Shown piece by piece: positions 6,561 through 50,777 of a stretch of DNA of 64,000 nt. The notes below the pieces were generated by a model. The model saw only the letters and a program-made list of their open reading frames with translations, was not told where the DNA came from and made no database searches. Both the position numbers and the translations under genes were made by a program. Source of the stretch: Eledone cirrhosa (lineage: Eukaryota); the NCBI GenBank assembly GCA_964016885.1, contig OZ024743.1, forward strand, positions 155,248,001-155,312,000, given 5' to 3'. Every line of letters starts with the position of its first letter. Position 1 is the first letter of the stretch.

Positions 6561-6573
6561 TATTTCTATTTCC

Positions 6574-7039
6574 ACTCAATATTAAGATAGTAGAACGACC
6601 AGGTACCTCCGTAAAAACACTTATTAGCAAGACATACCCTTTTCAAAGACGCTCGTGTATAGATAAGAAATGTATAACCTGTAAAATAAGCCCCCATATT
6701 TACTGTAAAACTAGAAATGTAGTGTATAGCATAAGATGTACCGGAGGACAATGTAGAGACAAAAATATAGTGTACATAGGTGAGACAGCTCGTAGTGTAG
6801 GGGAACGGATAAATGAACACTGGTGAGACCTTCAAGATAATAAAGAATCATCTGTACTCTACCAACATACTAAGATAGAACACAAGGGTAAATTAGAGAA
6901 CATAGAAATAAAAATAGAATCTACACACAGAAAAGACGCAATGTTTATACAAATTACAGAGGCAATAAACATAAAGGAATTACAACCAACATTAAATAGA
7001 AAATATGAGTGGAACAGCAACATCACAACTTACATTTAA
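6574..7039 (+). pseudogene. GIY-YIG endonuclease copy in the inverted arm
   Basis: CIDKKCITC..RNVVYSIRC..YIGETARSVGERINEH; TGA at 6824 where the other arm has CGA. Confidence 0.88.
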
Positions 7040-7239
7040 GGACAAAATGAAAACACACACACACATAGAACAAACAACCAACCAGTAACATGTAAATAAA
7101 CAAATAGATAAATGAACATAAACACACACAGACACCCGGATGTGGCGCATGCGCAGACTGAGCACACAACACACACACAGAAACAAAATGGCGTAGGACA
7201 GAACAAAGGAGAGGCACAGAAACAAAGAAAGGAGTCCCC

Positions 7240-7284
7240 AGTCACTGAAGAGGTCACATAGTGTGTGACGAAAGAACTATGACT
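7240..7284 (+). ncRNA. Minimal hammerhead ribozyme (copies on - at 3867-3911 and 14504-14546)
   Basis: agtca-CTGAAGA-g-gtcaca..tgtgac-GAAA-gaac-TA-tgact. Confidence 0.75.
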
Positions 7285-7497
7285 ATATATAAACAACTAT
7301 CTCGTTGTGGAACCAACCAACCAACCCGAAATTTATGAATTTATAAATTTGTAAATTTATAAATATATAATAAATTGAAGTGAAAGCAACTGGTGCGTGT
7401 GTTTCTTATTGGCAACATGACCCTCCCAAAGTATAACAATATCGGTTTCAACACACGAATTCAGATAAATAATCTTGCTAAACAAATTCAGAAACGA

Positions 7498-7532
<35 letters not shown>

Positions 7533-7533
<1 letters not shown>

Positions 7534-8250
7534 AGTGGTTACACAACAGTTAGTTCACCATACCGAGAACAATTGGTTCACCTTAGCGGATCCTCAGCTC
7601 GGAATACGCATGGTTATAGGAACAGGAAGGACAACCGTACGAACGCGCATGTGCAGAAATCCAGTTACTTCACTCAGGCAATACTAGACTGCGTGAGAGA
7701 GGTGTAAGGGAGAAAACTGCGAAATTCGCACCCCACGTATGGTCCCTCAAGGACTCAAGTATAGACTACTCAATTCAATGGAAAGCCATCACTAAGTCCA
7801 AGCCATACGCAAGTGGAAATCCGACGTGTGGCTTATGTATTGACGAACGAATAACTATTCTAAAGAGATTACGCAATATTGATTGCATAAACACGAGTAT
7901 GGATTTTTCACACGTTATCCACACATCGCCAAACACCTATTGCATAATTACAAGGCTCCGGACTGATTCTTTGTAATATTATTTTCAACCTAAAAACTGT
8001 TCAGACTTTCGCAGTTACTCCCTTACACCTCTTGCACGCAGTCTACTATTGGCTGTGTGAAGTGACCGGGTTTCTGCGCATGCGCGTTCGTACGATTGTC
8101 CTTCATGTTCTTATAACCATGCCCATTCCGAGCTGAGGATGGGCTAATGTAAAACAATTGTTCTCGGTATGGCGAACTAACTGTTGTGTAACCACTTCAC
8201 GCCCCATGGCCTGAGTGCTCTACCACTACTACGGATATTACTTTCCAGTG
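7533..8250 (+). mobile_element. Short Naiad-like PLE: GIY-YIG C-terminal remnant, inverted arms (7533-7725 and 8007-8198), tail
   Basis: 7730-7900 translates HVWSLKDSSIDYSIQWKAITKSKPYASGNPTCGLCIDE; about 190-bp inverted repeats; TA flanks. Confidence 0.85.
8128..8167 (+). ncRNA. Decayed hammerhead ribozyme (inverted copy at 7563-7602)
   Basis: Two-copy consensus ccgag-CTGAGGA-t-cc..gg-t-GAAA-caattg-TT-ctcgg; each copy has a mutated GAAA. Confidence 0.6.
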
Positions 8251-8258
8251 TTCCACCG

Positions 8259-8397
<139 letters not shown>

Positions 8398-8998: not shown

Positions 8999-9029
<31 letters not shown>

Positions 9030-9035
<6 letters not shown>

Positions 9036-12000
9036 CAGATTAAGGCTTCAGCAAAGAATCGCTGCTTTCACCCTTAGCAGGATCTTCTGAAACTAAGAAA
9101 GTCAATCTGTGAACGCAGAAGTAATTATTTCAAAAATCGTTGCAACCGGAGGGAAGACAGGAAGACGATACTTTGTTTCGTGGAAACGTTACCTGGCAAA
9201 GAACGGGAAAATACGAAGATAATACGTCATTATTAGGGCGTTGAAAAGCAATTATATGCAAAGACAAAACCACGTTTATGGTATCAAAGAAATCGTAGAC
9301 TAATATTCTATTAGGTGGTTCATGGAGATTTTCTCTGGCAATGGACGGTAAAAACGAAGAAAATACGTCATATGTGGAGCGGAGGAGAACAATTGCACGC
9401 AAAGACAAAACTACGTAAATGGTATAATTGAAGTCGTAGACTAACATTCTAACTAGGAAACCGAATGATTCTCGGCTTCAGAGTTAAGAATAAAGTAAAT
9501 AAAATACAGAGGTAATTGAAATTAAATAAATATATATACGCATCCATATACGTTCATACACAAGCATGCGCGAAAACACTCGCCATAGGAATGCAAATAC
9601 AAGCATGTACACAAAAAAAACCGCACGCACATACAGAACCCACGTAACGCCTGTACACGCACACATACGAATGTATGCACCATATACACATAAAAATATA
9701 TTTTAAAAAACAATATATATATATGTGTGTGTGTGTGCGTTTGTACATATAATTAAATAAACGTATATAAATAAATAAATAAATATGTATATAACGCGCG
9801 CACACACATACCTACATGTAAATACATATATGTTCGGAGACTACGTCAAACAAAACTCAAAGTACACATATACACGCACCCTACATACGTACGAACCCTA
9901 ATACTCACACAGACGCAAGACTCGCGTATACACATAACCAAATGCATATGTACCAGAATATATAATATATACGCCCTAATATATACAATAAAATATACGT
10001 ACGAGAAAGTATACGTACCTTCATAAAACATACAGGTAATATCTATACTTACCTATACAAATAAGTAATGGTATAAACATATAATTAGCTACCACATCAA
10101 GACGTAAAATATCCGCGTATAGTCCGTACTATCCGTTACGGTATAATGTGGGGCTGTAATCCAGGAACGTTTTTTGCAATTTATGTTTACAAGCCGAAAT
10201 TGCCTCAGATTTTTTGTTCAAGATGTGGTCTTTGGCGTAGTGTATTTCCAGAGCTTCAGCGGCGCAGAGGTCACATGGTCTTTTATTTCCGTTATACGAC
10301 CTAACCAAAGCTAGGATCTCCCAGTTTAACTTATATTGGGTTGGTGTCTATTAAACTCCAGATATAAGCTGAAAGTGACGTCATATTCCTTCTTAAAGGG
10401 TTAATAAAAGAATGGGTATGCATGTAAAGACGCTGCTTGCATCTATTGGCAGTTAACCCTATGTAGGCCCTACGGGACGTGGGTGTGTCAACCTTACATT
10501 TGTAGACAATGTTACTAGAGAGGCATTTCACGGATAGGCGGCCGTCGACCCGATTCCTACAATTACAGTTAGTACTAGATATAGGGTTGCACGTGTTCCT
10601 ACGGCTAGGTAGTTTAGCTAAATGTGAAGCTGTGATGTTATGTGCAAGGTTATGAGTCGTAGAGCAATATATTTTAATGGTATTTCTATTAACAATTTTA
10701 CTATATTTATGTGTTTGGAGAAAATGCTTCATAATAAGGGAGAGAAAGATCTTAGCTAATGGTGTGGCTACCTCCATATTATATGGTGGGTTATACCATA
10801 TAATCGGCCGGGATCTATTTGTTCTAGGTTTATTCTCGTACTCTATATATGCTACCTTATCGACAAATCCACTCCGACCAAGAGCTTCAATGTAACATGT
10901 AGATTGGTCGTTGAAAATATTCTCGTTAGTAGATAGACGGGAAAGCTACAAAGAAAGGTTTCTTACCAGGTTCTTGGTTATGCTGGAAGGATAGTTATAA
11001 TACTTACTTGTGTAATTAAGCGTATCATTCGGCTTTCTATACGGGTAGTGCAAGCCATTCTAGAAATTGAGGGTAACGTCGTGGTAATTAACGACCAAGA
11101 GGTTGGCATCAACCTGTATGGAGAGGTTGAAGCCTTTATAGAAGGCTGTGAGTTATTTTCTGAACCTGTCGCAAGCACGTGGGCCGCACATTGTCATGGT
11201 CAAAAGACCATCATCACGGTACAAACCACCGCCCACGTTTGGGGAATTATTCCTTGTTAGAGAAAAGAAGGAAAAGGCCTATAAGATCAGTAACCTCCAT
11301 TGAATCGCTGGCGCTCATACTCACGTCGAATGAGGTACTATTATATTTTTTAATCGAAATAGAGTCGTTGAAATTAATCACCGACTTACGGGCATTGAGG
11401 ATGACATCAACTTCGAAATCCTTAACCACTTGAGTGTTTTAGCGAAATTGATAGCTCTAAGGAGAAGTGGTAAAGTGATGGAGGAGTAGTAATTATTCAT
11501 GTCGAATTGGATATGTTCCTTGTTGCATATGCCGTTGAACCAATCAATCAGCGCGAACGAATTGTTCCACAGTGCAAGAGGGGCCAAACTTCTAATTTCA
11601 GGTATAATTCTATATAAAGTCCTTTTACTAAGTCTACCTAAATCGGACTTCGTAGGGTAAATAAGCCGAATAGAAGGGTTGTTCGGGAAATTGGATTTGT
11701 GATTCTTCAGGGTAAAGTGGGGAGAAATAGGGTCCAGATGTTCAGTCCGGTCCAGGATGTTGAGATCAGAGGTGATTTTAAACCCAGCATCGTTGATTTC
11801 ATTAATGACGCTCCGATTAGCTTTACCGTAATCCTTAGTTACAGCATTATGTAGCAGTTGAGAGTAAGTACTGCGCTCCACTTGATATAGATTGCAGTTT
11901 TGGCGGAGTGGACGTGCACGGCATCAGAATCCTTAATAGAACGAATTCTATTATTCAGCTCCTGCTGGAAGGAATTGCTCCTATTCCGAAATTTGATACT

Positions 12001-12403
12001 CGGTATGAGAACCACCTAATGGAATATTAGTCTACGACTTCTTTTATACCATACATGTGGATTTGTCTTTGCTTGTAATTGTTTTTCACCGCTCCAAATA
12101 ATGACGAATTAACTTCGTTTTTTCCCGTTCTTTGCCGGGGAACGTTTCCGCGAACCAAAGTATCGTCCTCCTGTCTCCCTCCTGTTGCAACGTTTTAGTT
12201 TTAAATTTACTTCTGCGTTCACAGATTGACTTATTAAGTTTCAGAAGATCCCGTTGTGGGTGAAAGCAGCGATTATTTGCATAAGATTTAATCTATTATT
12301 TTAATAACTATCTACTCTACGGTTCTTATATATTTGATATATATGCATCCTTATCGAACCCTCTTTGGATTTTTTTCCTCAATTATTATTCAATTATTAT
12401 TAT

Positions 12404-12408
<5 letters not shown>
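9030..12408 (-). mobile_element. Naiad-like PLE: frameshifted RT plus GIY-YIG at about 10130-12015, inverted 3' arm at 12050-12408
   Basis: QFDMNNYYSSI, MSASDSMEVTDLIG, GLYRDD, WYNPPY, CNC, YIGLT; 9030-9270 is the inverse of 12060-12300. Confidence 0.92.
12237..12287 (+). ncRNA. Hammerhead-like motif with CAGAAGA core (copies at 9043-9095 on -, 3508-3560 on +)
   Basis: agttt-CAGAAGA-t-ccc..ggg-t-GAAA-gca..tgc-NN-aaRNY. Confidence 0.55.
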
Positions 12409-12496
<88 letters not shown>

Positions 12497-12501
<5 letters not shown>

Positions 12502-13084
12502 ATAACAGGAGGCTGGTCTGCTGTAAATACTTGAAAGGTTTATTATACTATGATCATTTTACTTACCGGGTTCGGAATGAATCCGTTGACATTATCAGGT
12601 AATTAAAAATATAACAAAGGAATATATAAGATAAAATCCATGGTGCTGAAAATCAGAGACAAGAGTGCGTCCGACAATTTACCAGTTTCTACCTCTGAAG
12701 GCCATCCTCAAGGGGTCGATAAGTCTTATAGGCGGCCGACCCAGGTAGAAGCGGCTAAATTGTCGGTCGTCCTCTTGTCTCTGATTCTCAGCACCATGGA
12801 TTTTATCTGTTAAATTTCTTTGTTATATTTTTAATTACCTGATGATGTCACCGGATTGAATCTGAACTCGGTCATTGAAATTATTATAATATAATAAACC
12901 TTTCAAGGATTTAGACCAGTCCAGCCTCCTGTTATTTTATTATAATTAACCCCGTACTCGCACCATCAACTACACAAATGAAAACGGGTGAGTTGCATTA
13001 CGTTGAATGCTGTCCTTAATATTCCACTGAGCTTCACCACGCGGAATGACCAGTTCTATCTAGTGGTGAACAAACAAAACTAAC

Positions 13085-13090
<6 letters not shown>
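12497..13090. mobile_element. Non-coding fold-back element (arms 12497-12692 and 12750-12945, plus tail) with decayed HHR at about 12834-12892
   Basis: About 195-bp inverted repeat, CTGATGA-tgtca..tcatt-GAAA, TA flanks. Confidence 0.75.
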
Positions 13091-20684: not shown

Positions 20685-22985
20685 GTCTTCTTCTTTTTCA
20701 TCCATTTACTCTAGAGAGGGTTGCAAGGGAAGAGGCTTCAGCCACTCCTTCCAGCTGGGCCTGTCAGAACCATCCATCTTCAACAGATCCTGCTGGATCC
20801 TCAAGCGTGACCAGCCAAGCTCATGGATGTTATCCAATCATCTTGCTCGGTGTCTGCCCCTGGGTCTAATACGGTTTGGTCTTGCCCGTAAAATCTGTCA
20901 CGCGATTCTTTCCTGAGCTGAGACATTCTAACCACATGCCCATAATATCGGATCTGTGATCTCTAACTTCAAAAAATGGGCTACTTTACTAGTAGTGACA
21001 TTCCGATCTCAGAGTTACGCACGTTATCAAGTAACGTTACTCCAAAAACCCTTCATAGGAATCATATTTTGTCCGCTTGTATTTGCGATCGTATACTTTC
21101 GGTCATTATCCAAGATTCATGACAATATGTAAGGGTTGGCATGAATGACGAATTGAAGATAGCAAGTTTGGCTTTTACGCCTACCTCCTTTGTTCTGATT
21201 ACAGAATACGTGAGGGAACGCATTGCTTCACCAGCACCTGCAAATTTTGCAACTAATTCAATTGCCTGCCTTCTATTACTCGTGGACACGGCTCCGAGAT
21301 AATTTAACCTCTTTATCTGCTTCTGTGGAACTCCATCCACAGGTAACATGGAGTTGGCAGACAAGCGTTTTCCCAGCACTAATTATCATTCTATATGTAG
21401 CAATCGGCATAAAAGTGCAAGTCGAAGATCATCTTCTGTCGAACTAAGCAACACCATGTCGTCTGCAAATTCTAGCCGACTGATTTTACACCCGCCAGTC
21501 ATGATACCACTCCCACCTGGTTGCGCATGCCCATCATGTTCATGTTAATAATTGTTTCTACTTTTGACACAAGGCCAGCAATTATTCCAGTGTATTACTG
21601 GTGCTTTATTTTATCGAGCTCGTAAGGATGAAAGGCAAATTTAACCTCGGCGGGTTTTGAACTCAGATCATAAAGGGGCATAACTCTTTGCTGCAAAGCA
21701 TGGCATCAGTCCCTCGACCGATACTGCCAATCTACCGCCAAACCACCGCCATGGCGGAGTCCGCGCCCCACATAGAATGGTTTCGAGTTAGCACTATTTA
21801 TCCTAACACAAATACTCGGGCACTCATATAGAAACATCAGAGCAGCAAGAAGCTGATCATCAATGCCATACTCCTGCACATTCTTCCACAGCAGGTTCCG
21901 AGGGACGTGGTCATATAGCTTCTAAAGGTCTACAAAACAAGAATATGCTTCTTGGCCATATTCCCACAATTTCTCGAATGTCTGCCACAGTGTGACTATT
22001 TGGTTGGCTGTGCTGCGTCAGGAGCAAATCCCACTCTGTTAATGAGCTATCTTGATAATCTCTCTGCATCTCTTTGCTTTACACTTAGCATACACTTTAC
22101 CGACGTGGCTTAACAAGGAGTACCCTCTCTACATTGAACAAACTTTTAAAAATTGGGATTATCACTCCCGATTGCCATTACTTGGATGCCCTTCCGGAAA
22201 TCTAGGAGCAGCCGGCACACACGAGTCAGCCGGAGTATACCTTCTCTTTTTAAGGTTTTTAACATCATCTCGGGCCAGACATCATCTTACCCGACGGCTT
22301 TAAAACATTTCAGCAATTTAAATGCTCTTGTGACCTCAGCCTCTGTGGGATTAGTCAGCGCTTCCAGATACACCTCATGTACATCAGAAGATACAGATCC
22401 GATCGGATTTAGGATATGAAAAAATCAAGTTCGTGAGTATTCACCCATCTGAAGAGAGGAGTACTCTAGATGCTTTCTTGATAGCAGGTGTGGAGTAGGG
22501 CTTTTTTTTACGAAGTCGGCGGATGGTCTGCCACAACATTTTATTTGTCGATCTCAAGCCGGATTCTAACTTAAACACAATGTCTAAACTTTGGAGGTTT
22601 TTACTGTTTCTGTTGCGATATTTCATGACTTCTTTGTACGCTCACTACTTTGCTGGGATGGCATCTTTGACTTCTTAATTGAACCGAGACGTCTTCCTGT
22701 CATTCAGTGGCACACCATCTCGCTTTCGCCCGCATCAGTTAACAGCTGAAGCGGAAATTGCTGCGCTGAACACTTTCTACTCAACGTCTCAACGTACTCA
22801 TTTTGCTCAGGAAATTTTCTGAATTCGGATGCAATAGTACCTATATAAATTATCCTGGCTTCCGTATCCACCAATGCTTCCCACTTTATCCTGTAGGTCA
22901 CCCTGGCCCTGCCAGGTGTGTGGCCTATTTTGGCTTTAGGACGTCTCAAGTGACAGATTGCAAGATAGTAATCAGGTGACAGCAC
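20685..22985 (-). mobile_element. Decayed RTE-clade LINE (endonuclease end plus RT), interrupted by a SINE
   Basis: Minus strand: PDYYLAICHL, CFVDL..AYDHVPR, FADD at about 21460, NYLG, PTLTYCHESW. Confidence 0.85.
21547..21760 (-). mobile_element. tRNA-derived SINE inserted in the LINE
   Basis: Reverse complement of 24437-24630. Confidence 0.85.
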
Positions 22986-24436
22986 AAAAACAAAGAGACC
23001 AGAGACAATGACAGTTATTTATGGATCCCTGTCCCTAATTCTCCTTAAACCATTTATATTTAAATCGTCATCTATATTTACAGACGTCCATCAAAATACA
23101 CGATATTTTGAAATATTTCCATTGCGATTGGAAATAAGAAATATTTTAGTAAATAATTTACTAAAGAGACAAAAAAAATATTTTGTTTATCATTGGTCAC
23201 TTCTAATAAGGTATAATGTAATTTATTATGCTAACATGTAATGGTAATCATCATATTGTATTAATGGTAAGACAAATATTTCAAGGTTTTAGCTTTATAA
23301 TTACCGTATATTTGATATGAATTCAAAGACTAGAATTCTGAAAGTTAAGGGTGAACTAATAAAAAGGTTTAATTTCCGGTAGATGTATATCTAGTTTCCT
23401 ATACGTGTCAATAGTAACGATTTGATATCCCAGTCAGTATCACTGTCAGTGTAAAATACGTTAGTGATGCTGATTTTCAACAAGAAAGTATCAATAACTA
23501 TGTGATGTTGATCATCCACTGTTTATCTCTTGTTGAGTTATGATTATAAGACAATTAAGTCAGTATAATCTCCACCGTTAATCAAAAAGAGAGAAACACG
23601 TTCATAGACAACAACGCAAGTAATAACATAATACTAACAAGTTAGTATGACAAGGAATATTATTATTGGCATCAGCACCTTTTAACGAATCGATTAAAAT
23701 ACGTAAGCTTAAATGAAAAATAAAAAAAATAAAATAACCCAGACATCTTATATTTGATTAAAACGAGTACAAAATCGAAGGCAATTAAATAATTGGAAAT
23801 GCTCCAAAAATACTATCTTTTCAACTGAAGCACAAATGTAGACACTTGAACATACACACACATGCACACATACGCCCCCCCCCCCCCCCCACACACACAT
23901 ATGTAATAGTTTAGACGAGTTGAAAATACAACCATAGAAAGCAAATAATTCAAAGCTGAAATGTAATTTTATAGTCCACAGCAAAATAGGTGAGCGAAAG
24001 GTCAGAGTTTAATCCAATCGTTTAATTTCCAATCTCAGTAAATTTACAACATCACAGTGCATATATACATATATTTTCGAAATGGAGATGTCCAGTTACT
24101 TGTTCTTGTACTATCAGTCGCTTGATGCTATGAAACCGGGTTAAGCACCGGCCAAATGAGCCCTCTGGCTTTAGACAGCCATTAGACTTTTTTATGTGTG
24201 TGTATTTTGTTGTGTGTATGTGTGTGTGTATTTGTGTGTATGTGTGTGTGAGTCAGTGTGCGTGTGTGTATGTGCAATTACATTGTTATATAGAGATATG
24301 TATGTTGGTATATATGTTGTAATATACATCGCGTATAGCAGCTCGTGATATTTTATGCTTTTGTCGAATTATTAACGTATTTTCATGAACGAAAAAAATA
24401 GGTCACCAGTGTTAAACAGTTAATGCATTATTTATT

Positions 24437-24630
24437 TGGCGGATTAGCAGTATCGGTAGAGGGTCGGACGCCATGGTTTGACGCATAGAGTAAACGGCCC
24501 TTGCCATTCTGAGTTCAAATCCCGCCGAGGTTAAATTTGCTTTTCATCCTTACGGGGTCGATAAAATAAAGTACCAGTAATGCACTGGGGAATTTGCTGG
24601 CCTTGTGCCAAACTTAGAAACAATTATTTA
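24437..24630 (+). mobile_element. tRNA-derived SINE (Octopus-type)
   Basis: tggcggattagcag A-box-like start, B box gagttcaaatccc, core tttgcttttcatccttacggggtcgataaaataaagtaccag; several copies in the window. Confidence 0.85.
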
Positions 24631-25368: not shown

Positions 25369-25442
<74 letters not shown>

Positions 25443-25446
<4 letters not shown>

Positions 25447-26185
25447 ACATCGTCAGTGGTGCTATTATTTCCTCCCGTTGTATTGTATGTCTACGCCATT
25501 TTTATTCAGTCTGTCTATATATTTATTTGTTTATTTGCGTGTTTGTTTATTTTATGTTGTCTTCTTTGCGCATGCGTGTGCGTTTGTGTATAGTGTTGTG
25601 TTTGATGTGTGGTGTGTGTTCATGATTGGGTTACTAGTGTGTGTTTATGTGCTTGTGTATGTATTTATGTATTTATTTATTAATTTATTTTATTTTATTA
25701 ACTTATTTATACTTCTCTTAGGTCAGTGTTGTTTGTTTGGGTGTTGTTGTTATTCCATTCATTCTTTCTGTTTAGTCTTGGTCTTCTAAGTTCTATTTCA
25801 CTGGACTCACTGATTTGCCTATCTGCTGGGTCATTTCTATGTTTAGATATTATTCTAATTTCTATGTTGTCTATGTTACCGTCATGTTGTTGTCTGGCAT
25901 GTTCGTATAGTACTGACCCGTTTTTTCGTCCTTTTAGTTCCCCCCAGTGTTGGTCTATCCTTTCACCTATGCTACGAGCTGTCTCACCTATGTATGTTGT
26001 TGTCATGTTTGTGCAAGTACCCTCTGTACATATTATGCTATAGACTAGGTTTCTAGTTTTACAGTTTATCCGGGGGTTTACCTTACATATGATACATTTC
26101 CTATTGGTACAGTGGGTTTTCTTAAAAGGGTAGGTTTTGCTGATCAGGATGTTATGGTGGTTCCTGGCTTTTCTACCACCTTACG
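25443..26185 (-). mobile_element. PLE 3' fragment (GIY-YIG) related to the 3711 family; ends at a lone CTGACGA next to (TA)n
   Basis: CKTRNLVYSIMC..TYIGETARSIGERIDQH..LNRKNEW. Confidence 0.88.
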
Positions 26186-26395
26186 GTATATTTAGTCAGT
26201 TTCTACACGCTGTTGAAATGTTGGGTAAATAATGTATTTGGGTCACCGCGAAGAGGCCGCTTTCGGTTACTTATCAAATATTTCTTCATAGGAGACTTTA
26301 TTATTATAGCCTGGTCTAATTGATTTTTTCATTGGGGGGAGGAAATTGTATATATTGTATCTAATAATTCTAAGGGCACGATTTATGATATATGT

Positions 26396-26518: not shown

Positions 26519-27833
<1,315 letters not shown>

Positions 27834-27838
<5 letters not shown>

Positions 27839-28584
27839 GTCCAGGCTATAAGAATAAAGGCTCCTATGAAGAAATATTTGATTAGTAACCGAAAGCGTCC
27901 TCTTCGCGGTGGCCCTAATACATTATTTACCCAACATTTCAACAGCATATAGAAACTGACTAAATTTACCGTCAACCATACACAATTAGGTGAACATTTA
28001 AACTTAGAAGAAACGTGTACATACCGTAATTACATCTCTACCATGGTTTCGTCCGTATTTTTAGATATCCTATTGTTAAGGACGAACCTAGAGTAACAGA
28101 CTCTTCAGGAGACAAACTCAGTTGGACAGTCAATTTTCCAAAGCGATCGCGCCAATAATAGATTCAAAAATGGCTAAGAATCGTGACGTGGCAGTGGTCA
28201 AGTTAGAAAGAATGTGACTAGTTGCTTACGGCGGGTAGAGTTGTTGCTAGAAAGCGCAGCCCAATATCGCACAATTGCATCTCAACCCAACGGGAGATTA
28301 TTAAATATAAAGATTTACATATGCATAAAGTCACAGATATATATGTGGCAATCGGTCACGTTGTGGCTCAATGAAGAATTAATAAATTAAATAATCAAAG
28401 CAATATATCATAAATCATGTCCTTATAATTATTAGATAAATATATATACCATTTGGGAGAGGAAATGGTATATATTTTATCTAATAATTCTAAGGACATG
28501 ATTTATGATATATTTCTCAGATTATTTAATTTATTAATTCTTCATTGAGCCACAACGTGACCGGTTGCCACATATATATCTGTC

Positions 28585-28590
<6 letters not shown>
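27834..28590 (-). mobile_element. Non-coding HHR element, about 640-nt permuted unit, with inverted arm 28454-28590; second fragment at 26186-26395
   Basis: Fold-back centred near 28454; 26186-26395 bridges the end of the unit to its start. Confidence 0.75.
28034..28113 (-). ncRNA. Type I hammerhead ribozyme
   Basis: gtctc-CTGAAGA-gtctgt..acggac-GAAA-ccatgg-TA-gagat. Confidence 0.85.
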
Positions 28591-28635
<45 letters not shown>

Positions 28636-29248
28636 ACAGCGAGAAAGAGACAATTATTAGGGAGAAAAATATATTTTTTTCCTTTTTGGATTCTCTCTCT
28701 TCACTCTGTGTTAGAAAATGAATAACACGAAGTGTTCTACTTTGTGTGAAAGTGTTAAGGTATTAGTTAATTTCACCCTGTTTTCATATATATATATCGT
28801 AACTCGTTTGCTTCCTCTCCACACTTCATTATAATATATATATATATATGTTTGTATACATATATATATATATATATAAAATATTAAAAAAATAATGAAT
28901 AAAACAATGAAACAGTTCCTTATATTAAACAAAAAAAGTTCATTAATTAACGATCGTTTCTAGGATATATATGTGTTAGAATTGGCATGCATATTCAACA
29001 GATCTATGTACAAAATTATACAAAATTATACAAACTATCAAGATTAAATATACATACCAAACACACATATATGCCGTCTTCAGAAATAATGAAATATATT
29101 TATTGATAATAACAACAATTCAAAATTTCAGGTCCGTTTGGGAACGGAGTTCAAATTGACCAATGAAAATACAAAAAAAATTATGCAGTTTGGTGTGTGT
29201 ATATACATGTAACTAACTTCGTACACTACAAAGATATATGCTCACCAA

Positions 29249-30295
29249 ATGAAAAGTACACACTTAAATGCCACCCACACTATACCCCAAAATACCAAAT
29301 CTTCTAATATAAAATATAGTAACTCTCAAAAAACTACTCATCATACAACTCTAATAAATATTAATAATAAAACTCCTAATAAAAAAGATAAATCACCTAA
29401 ATCTACAAATATAACTAAAAATGGTTGTGGTGAGATCATTAACATTAATCCTCCTAGTAAACATCACGATACAACCTATAAAAATAATAAAAATAATAAA
29501 CAACATAGAAACCGTAATAGACGGGTTACTTGGTATAATGCTCCATTTAATTTACAAATTAAGGATAATATTGCTAAAAAAATTTTTTATATCCTAGAGA
29601 AAAACTTCCCGCCAAACCACAAATACCATCAAATCTTAAATAGGTCTACAGTTAAATTCTCATACTCAACAACAAATAACATAAAACAAAATATAAGTGC
29701 CTATAATGCATATAAATGTAAGAAAACCATAAGTATACCACCAATACATCAAACTAACCATAATATCTCCTCAAATACAGAATTAACGAAAGGTTGTAAC
29801 TGTAGAAACAAAGCAAACTGCCCATTAAAAGGGAATTGTCTTGTTAACAACATAGTCTATAAATGTAATGTTAAAACTAAAGATTCTATTTGCTCATATA
29901 TAGGAGCTACTTCTAACAATTTTAAGACAAGGTTTAATACCCACAAGCATAGTTTTAAAAATGCCGCACTGGCTAATACAACATCTCTAGCAGAAAAAAT
30001 CAATAGTTATAAAAATAAGAATATAGAATATGATTTGACCTGGAGTGTGCTCAAAAGAGCCACCCCTTATCAAAATAATAGAAATGAATGTAGATTATGT
30101 TCCCAAGAACTATTTGAAATAATGAAATCTAAGGATATCCTATTAAATAAACGACAGGAATTAATTATATCGTGTAATCATAAACTAAAAAAACATTTAA
30201 ATATTATAAACCTAATTAATTATTATAAACCTAATTATTTTATTATAAACCTAATTAATATTATAAACCTAATTATTTTAGAAATTAATATATAA
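29249..30295 (+). CDS. C-terminal part of a Naiad-like PLE protein (linker plus GIY-YIG), open frame
   Basis: VTWYNAPF, CNCRNKANCPLKGNC (CxCx5Cx5C), IVY..SYIGAT..FKTR..H, CRLC..LLNKR..CNH. Confidence 0.85.
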   Translation: MKSTHLNATHTIPQNTKSSNIKYSNSQKTTHHTTLININNKTPNKKDKSPKSTNITKNGCGEIININPPSKHHDTTYKNNKNNKQHRNRNRRVTWYNAPFNLQIKDNIAKKIFYILEKNFPPNHKYHQILNRSTVKFSYSTTNNIKQNISAYNAYKCKKTISIPPIHQTNHNISSNTELTKGCNCRNKANCPLKGNCLVNNIVYKCNVKTKDSICSYIGATSNNFKTRFNTHKHSFKNAALANTTSLAEKINSYKNKNIEYDLTWSVLKRATPYQNNRNECRLCSQELFEIMKSKDILLNKRQELIISCNHKLKKHLNIINLINYYKPNYFIINLINIINLIILEINI

Positions 30296-31472
30296 TTTAA
30301 TTTAAATGTTAGTTAACCTATAAATTTAATTTAATTAAAATTCTACTACAGATGAGAATATAAAATATTGTGTAATCATAAATTGTGAAAAACCTTTAAA
30401 TATTACTAATATATACTTAGTAATTTAATTTATAGATTAATTTTAATTTATTTAACCCTTTATTAAAATTCCTTTACAGATAAAATATAACAAAATATCG
30501 TGTATTCAATGACAGAGAAATAATTTTTAGTATTATAGACCTAATTAATATACATTTTAGAAATATATTTATAATTTGGTTTGAAATTTAGTCAACTTAA
30601 AAATTTAATTTAATTGGCTTAAAATTAGTATCCTAATACAGACGGATTGCAGAGTGTCATGTAATCATAGAATGGGATGTGTTTTGGATGTATACCTAGT
30701 TAATATATTCTTTGCAATTTTTGAAAAAATATGTATATGTATGTATGTATATGTATGTGTATGTATATATATATATGTGCATATATATATATGTATATAT
30801 ATGTATATGTATATGTATTAATTTTGATTTCTGTTTGCATATAATTATATTCTGCTATTGATAAAATACAATATCTGTTTTATTTATTATATACCTAATT
30901 AACATATACTATAGAAATTAATATATAATTTTTAATTTAGTTAACCTATAATTTATATTCTACTACCGATGTAATACTTTATTTGTTTTTTCCCTATTAC
31001 TAAATTCATTTCCTAATATTGATACCATAACGTTAATAATTTTAATTTAGTTATACTATAATTAATACTCTACTGCTATTTAACTTCAAAATTCTGCTTC
31101 AAATATTATAAACCTAACTAATTTACACCTTAGAAATCAATATGTTAACTATCTTTAGTTTAGTTAACCTATAATTAATGGTATACTTATATTGAAATGC
31201 ATAATTTTGCCTTATTTCTTGCATTTCCTAACACTGAAACTATGTAAAAACATATATTGAGATCCAAATACAGATTAATATTCTATGTTTCTTGAAACAT
31301 ATATTTACTATAATCCCCTTCTCCACCCCCCCCCCCTTTCCCCCATACTATTATTATCTGTATTTGTAAGCGTGTATGTATGAATATATATGTAGGTAGG
31401 TGTATATATGTTTGGGTGTTTATATCTGAGTATAAAAATACATATATGCGCATGCAAATAAGGATGTATGAT

Positions 31473-31556
<84 letters not shown>

Positions 31557-31561
31557 TGTAC

Positions 31562-31614
<53 letters not shown>

Positions 31615-31617
<3 letters not shown>

Positions 31618-32215
31618 CAGTTGGTGCTACTGGTAACATGTATCCCAGTACAACCTGTCCCATGGTCGGGTCGTTGGCGACTAAACTGGCAACCCCACCA
31701 AGGTTTCTTGGTGAGGAGGGTGACTTTGGACATCCTGCAGGACTAAAAACAAAACCTGTCAAAGGGAAAAGGAGCTCTTAAGAGTCAATGGCCATCCAAA
31801 ATCACCGGGAGGGATGACCCCTTAGCCTTTGTCAAGGCAGAATTCTAGGAGAAGGAAAACTCTGATATAACACCTGCAACCCTGATGGTATCCAATGATG
31901 TTGACTTGTTCTTCTTTTTGGTAAATATCATCTTGGTTAAGAGAGTGGGACTGGCTTTGTGCAGTGCCTTTGCTCACTATAAAAGCTTCACGGCACAGGC
32001 ATTGCTTTATATCTGGAGATCTCTCTGCACTTGTCGTCACATGGTACCATGGGCCCAGCACTATGTGTCAGTAATTGTCACAAGTGTAGTGTTTGTACCA
32101 GAGTTTTCAAGTCGCTGGCTGGACTAAAAAGTCACACTCGTTCAGCGCATCGGTAGGGGTTCTCCTACATGGATATAAAGTAGTGGCCGTACTCGAAAAC
32201 GAGTTGGCAGCCACC
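31615..32215. repeat. GC-richer unclassified insert between TA tracts
   Basis: Sharp composition change bounded by (TA)n; no protein motif recognised. Confidence 0.4.
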
Positions 32216-33255
32216 ATATATATGTATATATGTATGTGTGTGTGGGCGTGTATGTGTGTGTATATATATGTGTGTATGTATGTGTGTGTATATATGTGTA
32301 TGTATATGTATGTCTCTCTATATATATGTGTATCTTCGTATCTATGTGGGTATATGTGTGTATGTACATGTATGCACATGTATATGTTTATGTGTATATG
32401 TGTGTATGTGTATATGTGTACGTGTGCGCACATATATATGTGAGTGTGTGTGTGTGTGTATATATATATGTATGTCTATGTATATATATATTTGTATGTG
32501 TATATATATATATTATTTATTATTATAATATAACTTATGTGTATATATGTATATGTGAAGGTGTGTATATGTATATATATATATATGTAAACATATATGT
32601 GTATGTGTGTTTTTGTGTGTGTGTATATATATGTATATATGTGTGTATGTATGTGTTTGTATGTGTGTTTATGGTTGTATGTGTGTGTGGGTATATATAT
32701 ATATGTATGTGTATATATATATATATGTGTATATGTATCTCTATTTATGTGTGTATATATGTATATGTATATACCTTTTTCTTTGTATGTCTGAGTTGTG
32801 TGAGAATGTAGTGGTGTTTGTATGTATATACGCATATATGGATGCGTATGTATTTGTATATATGCGTATATGTAAGTGCGTATGTGTGTGTGAATATATA
32901 TCTATGTCTATGTATGAGTATGTATGTGTGTGTATGTATGTGTGGGTGTATGTATGTATGTGTGTATGTGTGTATATATATGTGTGTATATGTATGTGTG
33001 TATGTGTATGTATGTATGTATATGTGTATGTATATGTTTATATATATGTATATATATATATATATATGTTTATTATATATGTGTGTGTGTGTATGTGTGT
33101 ATATATATCTTAAATATATGTGTATGTGTATGTATGTGTAGGTGTGTGTGTGTATGTGACTATATATGTATGTGCGTATATGTGTATGTATGTATGTGTA
33201 TGTGTGTGTACATATATGTATATATATGTATATATATATATATATATATGTGTGT

Positions 33256-33287
<32 letters not shown>

Positions 33288-33497
33288 GTATATGTATCTC
33301 TATTTATGTGTGTATATGTGTATATGTATATACCTTTTTCTTTGTATGTCTGAGTTGTGTGAGAGTGTAGTGGTGTTTGTATGTATATACGGATATATGG
33401 ATGCGTATGTATTTGTATATATGCGTATATGTAAGTGCGTATGTGTGTGTGAATATATATCTATGTCTATGTATGAGTATGTATGTGTGTGTATGTA

Positions 33498-33528
<31 letters not shown>

Positions 33529-33810
33529 CTGTATGTATATGTGTGTATATATATGTATGTATGTGTATGTCTGTATGTATATAAGTATGTATGTGTATGT
33601 ATATGTGCGTGTATATATATGTGTGTATATATATATATGTGTGTGTGTATATATGTGTGTGTGTATATATGTGTATATATGTGTGTATATATATATAAGT
33701 ATGTGTGTATATGTGTGTATATATATATGTATATGTTTATATATGTGTGTGTGTGTGTGTTGTACGTGTAGATGTATATATATATATCTATATATATATA
33801 TATATATATT
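32216..33810. repeat. Degenerate (TG/TA) microsatellite containing a duplicated block about 560 bp apart
   Basis: ccttttctttgtatgtctgagttgtgtgaga block occurs at about 32775 and 33333. Confidence 0.9.
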
Positions 33811-34422
33811 TTCTTGATATATTTCCTTTTTCTTTTTTCTTTTTCTTTTCTTTTCTTTTTATTTCTAAGTTTATAGATACATCTATAAATAAGCAGTCTG
33901 CCGAAACCGTTGAATACTGACCTCTCCCCCCCTCCCACCTAATTTCTGTATCTTGATCTAAATGTGTGTGGCAGTGTTTATGTGCGTGCATTAATATCCA
34001 TATGCTTATGATAATACTATATCCACACATATATATGTGTGTGGGGGTGTGTGTGTGTATGTATGTTCGTAATTATGTGTATGTTTATGCATATACGCGC
34101 GTGTGTGTGTGAGTGTACGGATATGTGTGAGTATGTGAATATGTGTATACATTTATTTCATATTTATGTGTCTATACGCATTTTATCTGTGGATTATAAA
34201 CTTACAGAGACATTAGCCTTGAATTTTTGTATTTGCATACATCTTTTTGGCATGCGTATGCATGTGAGCATATATCTTTGTATAAATATGTGTACGAAGT
34301 TAGTTACATGTATATACACACACCAAACTGCATAACATTTTTTGTATTTTCATTGGTCAATTTGAACTCCGTTCCCAAAAGGACCTGAAATTTTGAATTG
34401 TTGTTATTATCAATAAATATAT

Positions 34423-34577
34423 TTCATTATTTCTGAAGACGGCATATATGTGTGTTTGGTATGTATATTTAATCTTGATAGTTTGTATAATTTTGTATAA
34501 TTTTGTACATAGATCTGTTGAATATGCATGCCAATTCTAACACATATATATCCTAGAAACGATCGTTAAATAATGAA
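34423..34577 (+). ncRNA. Hammerhead ribozyme with very long stem II (copies on - at 28939-29093 and 62584-62714)
   Basis: ttcattattt-CTGAAGA-cggcatatatgtgt..acacatatatatccta-GAAA-cgatcg-TT-aaataatgaa. Confidence 0.8.
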
Positions 34578-34771
34578 CTTTTTTTGTTTAATATAAGGAA
34601 CTGTTTCATTGTTTTATTCATTATTTTTTTAATATTTTATCTTGACTCTGTATTCCGTTTATCTTTCACCGAAAGTGATTTTTCATTGCATCTCTTCTTT
34701 CCATGATATCCGGACTACATTGAGTTCTTCATACGGATTGGACACTACCGTAAACTCTTGGTAGATTTATC

Positions 34772-35700
<929 letters not shown>

Positions 35701-39404: not shown

Positions 39405-39449
<45 letters not shown>

Positions 39450-40719
39450 AACAAGTACGACCCCGACGGCTGAGCTCAAGCCGTTTCGATGGTTAATTCT
39501 GGTCTAAATAAACATATTTAGCCTGGTAAATGAATAGCCAGGGGGTAATTCCATATATGGTAAAAGTGATTGTCACAAGGATTGGACAAAAGCTTGTTGT
39601 TAAGACATATGATTTTATGGAAGGTAGGGGTAGCTGAACTTGCCAGTAGAAGAAATACGGTGAGGGAGTGGAGGAAACCCAGTCAAGCGTTGAAAGTGAA
39701 AAATACAGTAGATTCTATCGATAGTGTATAGAATGTCGAAAAAGTATACTAGAGAAGGGGGGGAGTTGAAACAATAAGTAAATCTAGAGGGAGTAATCAA
39801 AAAGCCGTTATAAAAATGAGGAAATATATAAAAAATATATAAAAAAAATATAAAAACAATTTCTGGTTACTACTCCCCTTCCACACTCATCAAATCTCTC
39901 ACTGGTACTGCTAAGCTATAGAAAAGTTTAATAGGTTGCAAGGAATACTAAATACGAGATTGTAGTGAAAGAATGTTATGAGGCCATCATTACAGGGGAT
40001 TTACCACCACTACAATAGTTAGTAGTAATCACCCAATGCTATCTTACAATGACAGGTTAATAAGTTGAGGACCTAACATACTAAAAAAAACTAATACGAA
40101 ATATTAATTCAGAATCCCGAAATTAATACGAAATATTAATTCAGAATCCCGAAACTTGAATACTCATACAATATATATATAAGTAATGCTACAATACATA
40201 CATTCTAATACAATCTACATAAATATTCATACAATATACATAAAAAACTAATACAATATATATAAATACTGCTACAATACATACATTCTAATACAATCTC
40301 CATAAATCCTCGTACAATATATATGACAAACTAACTAATACGAAATATTAATTCACCCCCCCCCCCCCAACAAAAATATTAAATACTAATATACAAGAAT
40401 GTAAAGCAGAAATTCCACTAAAATATCTAGAAATCACGGAAATGGGGCAGCAACCAGAGAAGATGCAAGTATATTGGTTCTAGCACATCTGCTATAAAAA
40501 GCGGAATCGGCCAATTCTATCATAAAAAAGGGGGTGAGGGTACTGAGGCTACAGAGGACCGAGGGCTACATCGGGGTGGGCGAGCAGGTGAAAAGAACGA
40601 CGACAAAGAAGGATATCTGGGGTGGAAGGCCTAGGAAGGGATGGGGGAAGAAGGAAATATAGAGGAAACGATAAACAATATATAAAAAAGAATATATAAA
40701 AAGTTAAGCCAAACGCCAG

Positions 40720-42235
40720 ACTTAGCCTATGGAAGTAATCTCATGGTTCAGCAATATGGAGGACAAACGAGAGTCAAAATTCATCCAGTTTGACATAGAG
40801 AGTTACTATGCTTCAATTACCTTACAGTTCCTTACGGTCGCCTTGGACTTTGCCGAGACACTCGCGCCCATCACCGACCAGGAAAGAAATACCATCCTCC
40901 ACGCCGGGAAGACAGTCCTACTTTTTGACAACTCCAAATGAATAAAGAGAGCTCCCGACCCCCCTTCGACGTCAGTATGGGCGCGACTGATTCGGCTGAG
41001 GTCACAGATCTTATAGGATTATTCCTACTATTTAAACTCATCGATATGTTTCCTGCATTCGGAGGAGGATTGTACCTGATGATGAGCTCCTTACCCTCAA
41101 AGGGTGCAACCCCAGTAGTACAGACCGGGTCCTTAAACAATTAATCAGCTTCTTCCGAGACTGGGGATTTAAAATAACACTACATACGTCCCTAATCCGA
41201 GTAAACTTCCTGGACGTTACCCTTAAACTCGATATTGATCTGTACTACCTATACAGGAAACCAAACGACAACTTGCACTACATCCACCGCCGGTCGAACC
41301 ATCAATAGAATCATCAATAACCTGGTTACAAATATCTCCCTCGCATATCTCGTTTGTCAGCTAATGAGCAGATTTTCGAGGAATATGCGCCTTATAACAA
41401 CCAGTCAAGCAAGCGGAGTGGCTTCCGGGAGGAAATATCTTATCATCCTGCTTCCATTAGTGGAACCAGCAGGCGACACCGTCAATCACGCCATGTAACG
41501 TGGTTCAATCCTCCCCACAATGCCGAGCTGACAACACCTATCGGGAAAATCTTCTTTAGGCTCATCGACAATCACTTTCCACTACAACACGGCTACCACA
41601 ACATAATCAACAAAAACACCATCAAACTCTCCTACAGCACCACACCTAACTTTGCACAAAATATCGTCTACTGTAACAACAAAAAACTACACCACTATGG
41701 AAGAAATAACCTAGATAGCAGTGGAGAGCCGACCAGGTGGTGTAACTGTCCTGATGGATCCCTTTGCCCCCTCGACAACAGATGCAGTGATCGTAATGCG
41801 ATCTACCAGTGCAACATGAGGACGGACACCTCCAACAAAGCTTATATAGGATTAACCGCTTGTGACTTCAAGACCCGGCTCTACCAACACAGACATACTT
41901 TCCGAAACCCGGCCCGGCGTGACGCCACTATACTTTCGGGCCACATTTGGGACGTCAAAGATAATAATATAACCTACAATCTTATTTGGAGCATACTGTC
42001 CAGAGCAAACTCTTACACGGGAGGACGCCGTCCGTTTAACTCATGCTCGGAGGAAACATTACAATTGTTGTATTCGACGGACCAACTCCTAAACAAGAAA
42101 GGCGAACTGGTAACTGCATTCAAACACAGATTGCGTAGGACTTACCTCGCCCTCAAACCCCATAATGACCCGGGGGATGGGGGGCTGGTTAGACAAGGGC
42201 TGAAACACCCCACTTGCCGACTTTGTAAGGGGTAA
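40720..42235 (+). pseudogene. Frameshifted Naiad-like RT plus GIY-YIG
   Basis: FIQFDIESYY, MGATDSAEVTDLIG, VNFLDV, TWFNPP, CNCPDGSLCPLDNRC, YIGLT..FKTR. Confidence 0.92.
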
Positions 42236-43406
42236 CACCAGATTACAAAGGTAGACGTAACTTTTTTATATATTCTTTTTTATATATTTTTTATTGTTCC
42301 CTCTATATTTCCTTCTTCCCCCATCCCTTCCTAGTCCTTCTACCCCATATCCTTCTTTGTCGTCGTTCTTTTCACATTCTCGCCCACCCCGATGCAGCCC
42401 TTTGTCCTCTGTAGCCTCAGTACCCCCCCCCTCCTATTTTATGATAGAATTGGCCGATTCCGCTTTTTATAGCAGATGAGCTAGAACACAGACACTTGCT
42501 TTCTTCTCTGGTTGCTGCCCCATTTCCGTGATTTCTACATATTTTTTAGTGGTATTTCTGCTTTACTTTCTTGTATATTAGTATTTTTTTTTAGGGGGGG
42601 GGGGGGGTGAATTAATATTTCGTATTAGTTTTTCATATATATTGTACGAGTATTTATGTAGATTGTATTAGAATGTATGTATTGTAGCAGTATTTATATA
42701 TATTGTATTAGTTGTTTATATATATTGTATGAGTATTTATGGAGATTGTATTAAAATGTATGTACTGTAGCACTACTTTTATATATATTGTATTAGTATT
42801 CATGTTTCGGGATTCTGAATTAATATTTCATATTAGTTTCGGGATTCTGAATTAATATTTCGTATTAGTTTTTTTTAGTATGTTCGTCCTCAACTTATTA
42901 GCCTGTCATTGTAAGATAGCATTGGGTGATTACGACTAACTATCTTAGCGGTGGTAGATCCCCTGTAATGATGGCCTCATAACATTCTTTCACTACAATC
43001 TCGTATTTAGTATTCCTTCCCACCTATTAAACTTTTCTATAGCTTAGCAGTACTAGTGAGAGATTTGATGATTGTGGAAGGAGGGTAGTAACCAGAAATT
43101 GTTTTTTATATTTTTTTATATATTTTTATATATTTCCTCATTTTTATAATGGCTTTTTTGTTTACTCCTTCTAGATTTACTTATTGTTTCAACTCCCCCC
43201 CCCTTCTCTAGTATACTTTTTTCGACCTTCTATACATTATCCTTAGAATCTGCTTGACAGGGTTTCCTCCAATCCCTCTCCCTATTTCTTATACTGGCAA
43301 GTTCAGCTACCCCTACCTTCCACAAAATGCGATGATAGAAGCATATGTCTTAACAACAAACTTTTGACCAATCCTTGTGACAGTCACTTTTACCATATAT
43401 GGAATT

Positions 43407-43501
43407 ACACCCTGAGAAGTTCGGGATTCATTTACCAGGCTAAAAATGTTTATTTAGTCCAGAATTAGCCGGCGAAAGGGCTTGAGCTCAGCCCTCGGGA
43501 T
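43407..43501 (+). ncRNA. Hammerhead-like ribozyme with stable stem III (copies at 53992-54086 and partial ones at 39350, 39460, 53740)
   Basis: Consensus acccc-CTGAG(G/A)A-stem II-GAAA-cggct..agccg-TC-ggggt; covariation gggct/agccc. Confidence 0.7.
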
Positions 43502-43592
43502 CCTACTCGTTCCTATAACCCAATCTACTACCCTAATTATTGAGTACTTTGGTGCGTTATGGTCCATCTGGCTCCTTACCCCATTTCCTTCG

Positions 43593-43665
<73 letters not shown>

Positions 43666-50342: not shown

Positions 50343-50382
<40 letters not shown>

Positions 50383-50388
<6 letters not shown>

Positions 50389-50729
50389 AAGTTAAGTAAA
50401 AGTCAAATGATTAAAATTTAGCTTCGTTTATTACTGCTATATATATTTCAGTGACAGCCATCTTTGGCTGTGACCTCTTCAGGCAGTTTGAATTAGTATG
50501 GTATAGACAAGTACATATACTAATTCAAACTGCCTGAAGAGGTCACAGCCAATGATGGCTGTCACTGAAATATATATAGCAGTAATAAACGAAGCTAAAT
50601 TTTAATCATTTGACTTTTATTTAACTTTATTTTACACTACTCCGGAGTAACCAAACCAACCTGCGCACTTCGTCGATTGCTCCAGCCTGCATACTGAGGT
50701 GTTGGTATACAACCAACATAAACTCAAAA

Positions 50730-50731
<2 letters not shown>
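50383..50731. mobile_element. Short fold-back element (arms 50383-50500 and 50517-50633, plus tail) with an HHR in each arm
   Basis: Near-perfect inverted repeat of about 117 bp; TA flanks. Confidence 0.85.
50529..50583 (+). ncRNA. Type I hammerhead ribozyme (copy on - at 50433-50487)
   Basis: actgc-CTGAAGA-ggtcacagcc..ggctgtcact-GAAA-tatata-TA-gcagt. Confidence 0.88.

Positions 50732-50777
<46 letters not shown>

What the first reader, a model, noticed from the sequence alone, without database searches (positions are those of the whole stretch)
27834..28590. Second circularly permuted HHR unit, about 640 nt
The minus strand 28454 to 27834 contains a canonical HHR and ends in ..gcctggactaatt. 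The copy at 26186-26395 continues past that point through about 21 nt directly into the sequence that starts the 28454 arm (ggaaatNgtatata..tctaataatt), closing a circle of about 640 nt. It has no ORF and no evident similarity to the 522-nt unit.
Basis: partly seen in the sequence, partly recalled or inferred. Interest (0 to 1): 0.8.

Follow-up and report, generated by a model that had tools for sequence, protein, structure and literature searches.

The report
Hammerhead RNA parasite of Penelope elements
This is one copy of a 657-base non-coding repeat that carries a predicted self-cutting RNA motif and sits in TA microsatellites at well over a hundred places in an animal genome, with the same insertion pattern as the genome's Penelope-like retrotransposons, which likely copy it, probably from a circular RNA that has not been observed.

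Summary
Real, and of a known kind. The minus strand holds a type I hammerhead (cut predicted at 28039/28038) in a non-coding, circularly permuted unit. The family period is 657 nt, not about 640: the 26183 copy has a shortened linker. I mapped 157 insertions: 147 run through the end-to-start junction, 11 hold two or more same-strand ribozymes, the longest is 2.9 units, and none runs into a gene. Outer ends fall at two fixed ATAT sites 98 nt apart, fused to (TA)n. Of 53 head-to-head insertions with both ends at these sites, 52 pair a short with a long end; the two arms share alleles (92% against 58%). The neighbouring autonomous Penelope-like family shows the same pattern, and three insertions join the unit head-to-head to Penelope-like fragments. 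So: a non-LTR retrozyme, likely moved by Penelope-like enzymes. The circle itself is inferred; no RNA data were available, and uncut multimers fit too. An unchecked earlier scan note describes a similar TA-targeted unit (tRNA, no ribozyme) in another genome.

The parts
27834..28454 (-). Left arm of a head-to-head insertion: unit positions 1-620 of the 657-nt unit (sense on minus)
   Evidence: 91-95% identical to 41 other near-full hits
28033..28114 (-). Type I hammerhead: stem I 28114-28109 with 28038-28033; core CTGAAGA 28108-28102; stem II 28101-28096 with 28056-28051 around a 39-nt hairpin insert; GAAA 28050-28047; stem III with palindromic ACCATGGT; predicted cut after GTA, between 28039 and 28038
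   Evidence: core intact in 97 of 127 insertions with a whole ribozyme; stem pairs kept across subfamilies
28455..28591 (+). Right arm: unit positions 650-657 then 1-129, ending in (TA)n about 20 nt short of the usual long end (position 149)
   Evidence: 132 of 143 identical to the left arm
28589..28631 (.). (TA)n target microsatellite
27834..27840 (.). 7-nt overlap (AATTAG core) joining the unit tail-to-tail to the 522-nt unit; likely a deletion between two neighbouring insertions
   Evidence: only the window spans this junction among 41 matches
26183..26393 (+). Second copy: unit positions 482-657 (linker 16 nt short) then 1-51, ending at the short fixed end in (TA)n
25441..26183 (-). 3' fragment of an autonomous Penelope-like element (PLE1; frame 26180-25707 with GIY-YIG-like motifs), joined head-to-head to the second copy and ending in (TA)n inside its own minimal hammerhead
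26683..27840 (.). Neighbouring head-to-head insertion of the unrelated 522-nt unit (context, not part of the family)

Best explanation
A 657-nt non-coding repeat with a predicted type I hammerhead ribozyme, dispersed in (TA)n microsatellites with two fixed 3' ends, that is likely a non-autonomous retrozyme copied by the reverse transcriptase-endonuclease of Penelope-like elements, probably from a circular RNA. Steps. (1) Inferred: copies with two or more ribozymes are transcribed, the ribozymes cut (probably as dimers, through the palindromic stem III) and the 657-nt monomer is ligated to a circle, as shown for other animal retrozymes. (2) Inferred: a Penelope-like protein nicks both strands of a (TA)n tract. 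(3) Shown as a footprint, inferred as a reaction: each strand primes reverse transcription inside the RNA at one of two ATAT sites, position 51 or 149 (293 and 391 nt after the cut site), one site per strand. (4) Shown: the copies run past the ribozyme cut site and the unit junction for up to 2.9 rounds and stop at scattered places. (5) Shown: arms are joined head-to-head, short end on one side and long end on the other, and carry the same allele; now and then the partner arm is a Penelope-like fragment. The window locus is such an insertion, with its left end lost.
For: Period 657 and tandem copies. 157 distinct insertions from 193 loci: of 221 outer 3' ends, 132 at positions 44-53 (122 exactly at 51), 68 at 144-156, 21 elsewhere; TA-rich DNA follows 118 of 132 and 63 of 68. 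66 insertions are head-to-head; 52 of the 53 with both ends in these classes pair short with long (binomial P 1e-14 against one half). Agreement at 28 subfamily-diagnostic sites: opposite arms 509 of 552, tandem rounds of one arm 437 of 486, different insertions 58%. 101 of 108 motif-anchored arms read through the cut site; 11 of 157 insertions hold 2-3 same-strand ribozymes. Ribozyme stems are kept across subfamilies: 355-401 C-G 91, T-A 24; 364-392 T-A 88, G-C 14; 353-403 G-C 118, A-T 3; six one-sided changes keep a pair; the only subfamily-variable core position is N7. The autonomous family PLE1 (frames of up to 1167 codons, RT then GIY-YIG) also ends at two sites in (TA)n, 551 and 594-609, and the six loci where I read both outer ends pair one of each. 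Head-to-head joins of the unit with Penelope-like fragments at three loci: the window (PLE1), L118 (PLE3, long end opposite the unit's short end), L078 (a GIY-YIG fragment 37% like window 29213-30295). Two internal start sites and cutting of both strands were shown in vitro for a lizard PLE (PMC11167929); circles were shown for coral, mussel and axolotl retrozymes (PMC7229834).
Against: No RNA evidence of transcription, cleavage or circles. In the lizard PLE, uncut RNA was the dominant template and ribozyme mutants still inserted (PMC11167929), so read-through of the cut site does not need a circle; 8 of 9 Xenopus retrozymes tested did not cleave (bioRxiv 2026.07.22.740005). The active fold is 1.9-5 kcal/mol above the minimum in the window copy and in 4 of 5 other copies tried (the fifth lacked the core), and the circular monomer is only moderately structured (62% paired, z about -2.2, 25 shuffles, 2 copies). 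Core positions are not better conserved than the rest (2.6% against 4.2% mismatch, P 0.25). Covariation counts are sequences, not events: about three double changes; 18 copies break pair 358-398 and 11 break 364-392. In L119 one round differs from the other two at 6-7 of 27 diagnostic sites, and L144 agrees at only 19 of 26, which one circle would not give without a template change. The 52 of 53 include one duplicated locus (L202/L203) and two long ends that really stop near position 129-133; 13 head-to-head insertions have one end at neither site. Loci were chosen by similarity searches, so lengths and proportions are biased. The three mixed joins could be deletions between neighbouring insertions.
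Confidence: 0.6

Rival explanations
1. Same element and same carrier, but the template is the uncut linear multimer transcribed from tandem copies; the ribozyme is slow, protein-dependent or used for something else, and circles play no part in spread.
For: Uncut RNA is the dominant template of a PLE in vitro (PMC11167929). 11 of 157 insertions could supply multimers. Mixed alleles between rounds in L119 and L144. Internal starts give permuted ends without any circle.
Against: No array above 2.9 units among 157 insertions or in the motif hit lists, so 5'-truncated copying of linear templates should wear the tandem form away. No shared source flank was seen at the 28 one-sided 5' ends away from TA, apart from a common SINE. 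The ribozyme fold was kept across subfamilies.
Confidence: 0.28
2. The unit is the solo pseudo-LTR of an autonomous Penelope-like element not yet found; the copies are its 5'-truncated remains.
For: The insertion pattern equals that of PLE1. In Xenopus 24 of 57 retrozyme families match known elements, nearly all PLE ends (bioRxiv 2026.07.22.740005). The best match between the unit and the PLE1 untranslated region is the unit's long end against the sequence just after the PLE1 ribozyme (28 columns, 4 of 200 shuffles as good).
Against: Long arms continue into another round of the unit: of 108 arms traced upstream, 10 reach about a full round or more and I saw none entering a shared non-unit sequence. 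The only coding neighbours at one-sided 5' ends are inverted (2 of 28). The unit is absent from the 24 PLE1 loci outside the window.
Confidence: 0.09
3. A DNA-level repeat (satellite or foldback/MITE-like) whose hammerhead is a relic or chance.
For: Palindromic copies; no Rfam match; the unconstrained fold of the window copy is not the ribozyme.
Against: Fixed 3' ends with scattered 5' ends, unequal outer ends, dispersal over many chromosomes, and compensatory changes in the ribozyme stems.
Confidence: 0.03

Closest known systems
Non-LTR retrozymes of animals (Cervera and de la Pena 2020, PMC7229834; Li, Clavereau and Pollet 2026, bioRxiv 10.64898/2026.07.22.740005)
   Same: Non-coding, low GC (35%), type I hammerhead with a 2-bp stem III and palindromic loop, tandem or partial tandem units, no LTRs, living beside autonomous PLEs.
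   Different: 657 nt against 170-400 nt for the tested ones (inside the 51-972 range of the 2026 survey); stem II has a 39-nt insert; mostly short dispersed insertions, no long arrays seen; no clear homology to a pseudo-LTR found; two fixed ends, (TA)n targeting and head-to-head pairing are not described in the parts of these papers that I read.
Penelope-like elements with C-terminal GIY-YIG, Neptune/Nematis type (Craig et al. 2021, PMC8557442; Frangieh et al. 2024, PMC11167929; Cervera and de la Pena 2014, PMC4209133)
   Same: 5' truncation, partial tandems, inverted arm, a tail at one end only, microsatellite targets, starts downstream of the hammerhead, read-through of the cut site.
   Different: No ORF; the tail is 98 nt against 30-40 nt in print and 43-58 nt in PLE1; the starts share ATAT with the target, whereas the lizard element started at a non-homologous AC-rich site.
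Non-autonomous Chlamys elements such as MRC1 (PMC8557442, passage)
   Same: Non-coding PLE dependents in head-to-tail copies.
   Different: Those resemble their autonomous partner at the 3' end, and most Chlamys lack a canonical hammerhead.

Membership tests
Non-LTR retrozyme | Type I hammerhead in each unit | tested here: met
   core intact in 97 of 127; stems I-III pair; no Rfam hit, long stem II insert
Non-LTR retrozyme | Head-to-tail units with at least two ribozymes | tested here: met
   11 of 157 insertions; not the window locus
Non-LTR retrozyme | No protein coding; GC under 50% | tested here: met
   longest stop-free frame 67 codons; GC 35%
Non-LTR retrozyme | No LTR structure | tested here: met
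   fixed 3' ends, scattered 5' ends; primer-binding site and polypurine tract were not searched for
Non-LTR retrozyme | Highly self-paired circular fold | tested here: inconclusive
   62% paired, z about -2.2 in two copies
Non-LTR retrozyme | Self-cleavage and accumulation as circular RNA | not testable with these tools
   needs RNA data or bench work
Non-LTR retrozyme | Homology to a PLE pseudo-LTR (2026 preprint) | tested here: inconclusive
   one 28-column AT-rich match to PLE1 (4 of 200 shuffles); other PLE families of the genome not surveyed
Penelope-like element, autonomous | ORF with RT and GIY-YIG endonuclease | tested here: not met
   met by the neighbour PLE1 (motifs read, Atlas look-alikes; Pfam gave no hit)
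Penelope-like insertion signature | 5' truncation, partial tandems, inverted arm, tail at one end, microsatellite target | tested here: met
Plant LTR retrozyme | Type III hammerhead in LTRs, 4-bp target duplication | tested here: not met
   type I topology, no LTRs; duplications cannot be read in (TA)n

The most novel reading that the evidence does not exclude
A Penelope-like enzyme dimer primes both strands of a cut (TA)n tract on one circular ribozyme RNA, at two fixed sites 98 nt apart with fixed roles, rolls round the circle and joins the two products head-to-head; the two roles can be filled by RNAs of different families. The genome then records both the retrozyme's carrier and the origin of the Penelope 'tail at one end', and offers a 657-nt minimal substrate to test it.
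Probability: 0.35. Interest if true: 0.75.

Novelty: new member of a known kind. Interest (0 to 1): 0.5.

Why it matters
That Penelope-like elements move animal retrozymes is proposed from co-occurrence and sequence likeness (PMC7229834; bioRxiv 2026.07.22.740005). Here the insertions themselves carry the Penelope footprint, down to direct joins with Penelope-like fragments. The near-strict pairing of a short with a long end (52 of 53) and the shared alleles of the two arms constrain how these elements build their inverted structures, a point named as open in PMC8557442. A short non-coding RNA with two mapped start sites is a ready substrate for the in vitro system of PMC11167929.

Tried and rejected
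RNA: no RNA holder listed; three runs of unknown kind from one sample were laid as contigs; they show many variants of the unit and say nothing on expression or circles. Pile-up of 5' ends just after the cut site: 8 in positions 416-424 against 3.6 expected (P 0.03; 7 insertions; rank 18 of 657 windows; the best window is 418-426). Not used as evidence: most sit at the palindrome GTAATTAC or join by TA microhomology. Copy number: 77 and 114 exact motif hits; only 1 of 24 and 0 of 23 independently chosen copies match these motifs exactly, so the family is probably many hundreds to thousands, not measured. Rfam: no match. Pfam: no hit for three PLE frames; PLE1 is placed by motifs and Atlas look-alikes only, and 'Neptune-type' rests on its cysteine linker and TA target, with no tree. 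A PDB sequence search failed on a frame slip and was not repeated. The 27834 and 26183 joins as mobile composites: rejected, each seen once. Two separate source alleles for the two arms: rejected; one molecule cannot be told from two transcripts of one locus. Earlier scan notes near this place: none; by sequence: one unrelated chance hit. Paper searches listed no report of this family or of short/long pairing in retrozymes; the library is partial and no supplements were read.

Full report
Setting. The window is G000:C4:155248001-155312000 in an animal genome of 3.0 billion bases, dense in (TA)n tracts. Unit positions below count along the sense strand; position 1 is window 28454 on the minus strand.

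The observation. My own descriptor finds 4 hammerhead-like sites in the window, one at 28108 minus; Rfam finds none. The motif is type I: 6-bp stem I, CTGAAGA, 6-bp stem II closed around a 39-nt hairpin, GAAA, 2-bp stem III with the palindrome ACCATGGT, cut predicted after GTA (28039/28038). A short stem III with a palindromic loop is the usual animal form and works as a dimer (PMC4209133, part 1 of 4 read). The copy at 26183-26393 does run from the unit's end through 21 nt into its start. But tandem copies elsewhere lie 657 nt apart, the family linker is 37 nt, and the short linker occurs in 2 of 40 junction hits. There is no ORF and no same-strand likeness to the 522-nt unit.

The family. 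I held 193 loci, from four searches (30 loci of 95 matches to the whole unit, most of 77 exact hits of a ribozyme motif, 30 of 40 junction hits, most of the 100 listed of 114 hits of a downstream motif). After merging overlaps and dropping insertions cut by a locus edge, 157 remain. The 30 best copies are 95.6% alike pairwise. 147 of 157 run through the end-to-start junction; the median insertion is 689 nt (biased by my searches), the longest 1910. Of 221 outer 3' ends, 132 lie at positions 44-53 (122 at 51), 68 at 144-156 and 21 elsewhere; both sites end in ATAT and are followed by TA-rich DNA in 118 of 132 and 63 of 68 cases. Three long ends, the window's among them, really stop near 129-133 and were carried on by the aligner through TA. 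5' ends are scattered. 89 insertions are one-sided (71 short end, 11 long, 7 other), 66 are head-to-head, 2 neither. Of 53 head-to-head insertions with both ends in the two classes, 52 pair short with long, 1 short with short, none long with long; one pair of loci is a duplicate. At 28 subfamily-diagnostic sites the opposite arms agree 509 of 552 times, successive rounds of one arm 437 of 486, different insertions 58%. So both arms come from one allele: one molecule or one source locus. Exceptions exist (L119, L144, L118).

The ribozyme. In 127 insertions with a whole ribozyme the core is intact in 97. Subfamily changes in the stems mostly keep pairing (double changes at 355-401, 364-392, 353-403; six one-sided changes), and N7 is the only subfamily-variable core site. 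These are few events, two pairs are broken in 11-18 copies, and the core is not significantly better conserved than the rest (P 0.25). The active fold lies 1.9-5 kcal/mol above the minimum; in the window copy a G at position 371 lets TTCGTCC pair with GGACGAA and hide part of the core. The cut site is no barrier to copying: 101 of 108 arms pass it, and 11 of 157 insertions hold two or three ribozymes in line. A weak excess of 5' ends just after it is confounded.

The carrier. Left of the 26183 copy lies, inverted, the 3' part of a frame with GIY-YIG-like motifs. Its family, PLE1, has 150 scored matches at about 90% or more and frames up to 1167 codons with a YVDD reverse transcriptase and a cysteine linker (motif names from my knowledge); the nearest Atlas clusters carry RT, animal HTH and GIY-YIG families; Pfam is silent. 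PLE1 has its own minimal hammerhead, ends in (TA)n at two sites 43-58 nt apart, and pairs one of each in the six two-armed loci I read (L041, L046-L049, L054). The unit is not part of PLE1: it is absent from the 24 PLE1 loci outside the window. Three insertions join the unit head-to-head to a Penelope-like fragment with TA at both outer ends: the window, L118 and L078; in L118 the partner's long end faces the unit's short end.

The window locus. On the plus strand: (TA)n, two arms of the 522-nt unit, the inverted arm 27834-28454, the forward arm 28455-28591, (TA)n. The 27834 join has a 7-nt overlap and is seen only here among 41 matches. Both facing arms lack their natural ends, so a deletion between two neighbouring insertions is the simplest reading (inference). 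With one ribozyme, this copy is probably a dead end.

How it likely works. Multimer transcript, self-cleavage, ligation to a circle (inferred from PMC7229834, parts 2-4 of 6 read); a Penelope-like protein cuts both strands of (TA)n and primes inside the RNA at 51 and 149, one site per strand (footprint shown; a like reaction was shown for a lizard PLE, PMC11167929, parts 1-2 of 4 read); synthesis rolls past the cut site and the products join head-to-head. I put carriage by a Penelope-like enzyme at about 0.85 and the full account with a circular template at 0.6. The main rival is an uncut linear multimer (0.28), which the lizard data favour and no test here excludes.

What is known. Non-LTR retrozymes are described, with families of 51-972 bp and a proposed PLE origin (bioRxiv 10.64898/2026.07.22.740005, parts 1-3 of 5 read). 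Partial tandems, inverted arms, a tail at one end and (TA)n bias are described for PLEs (PMC8557442, 12 passages read). Five searches listed no paper on this family or on end pairing in retrozymes; no supplements were read, and they may hold such data. An unchecked note of this scan reports a TA-targeted, tRNA-bearing unit of like pattern in another genome; it came after my reading and did not change it.

Verdict. A real new member of a known kind, with an unusually clean record of how it inserts. Interest 0.5.

Noticed in passing
window 26683-27840 and 34870-35660: The 522-nt unit also seems to have two fixed ends about 92-95 nt apart (near 27496 and 27590), one on each arm of the 34870-35660 copy; its hammerhead-like core CTGACGACGAAA (27248, 27770 plus; 26921 minus) has no stem II.
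   Followed up: partly
window 3709-7498, 7533-8260, 9017-12407, 12493-13088, 28876-34775, 39444-43594, 50382-50732: At least seven more head-to-head repeats flanked by (TA)n, each flush with TA on one side and with roughly 55-145 extra nt on the other: the one-sided tail is general in this window.
   Followed up: partly
L050:5780-5810 (minus); window 25441-25456: PLE1 carries a minimal hammerhead about 250-300 nt before its two usual ends; the window copy instead stops inside stem II of that ribozyme.
   Followed up: partly
window 50482 (minus), 50534 (plus), 1134 (minus): Further hammerhead-like motifs; the first two are the arms of one palindrome.
   Followed up: no
L205 and L161: Two insertions both join at unit position 59 to the AT-rich tail of copies of one SINE-like repeat (window 21545-21742, 24435-24628); independent microhomology joins, or a SINE-driven source.
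   Followed up: no
window 3709-7442 and 29213-30295: Two more Penelope-like families: PLE3 (684-codon frame, about 70% like PLE1, sharing its short-end motif) and a GIY-YIG-like fragment of another type.
   Followed up: partly
L046:1716-5219 (minus): The PLE1 frame has an asparagine-rich stretch of about 150 residues before the RT.
   Followed up: no
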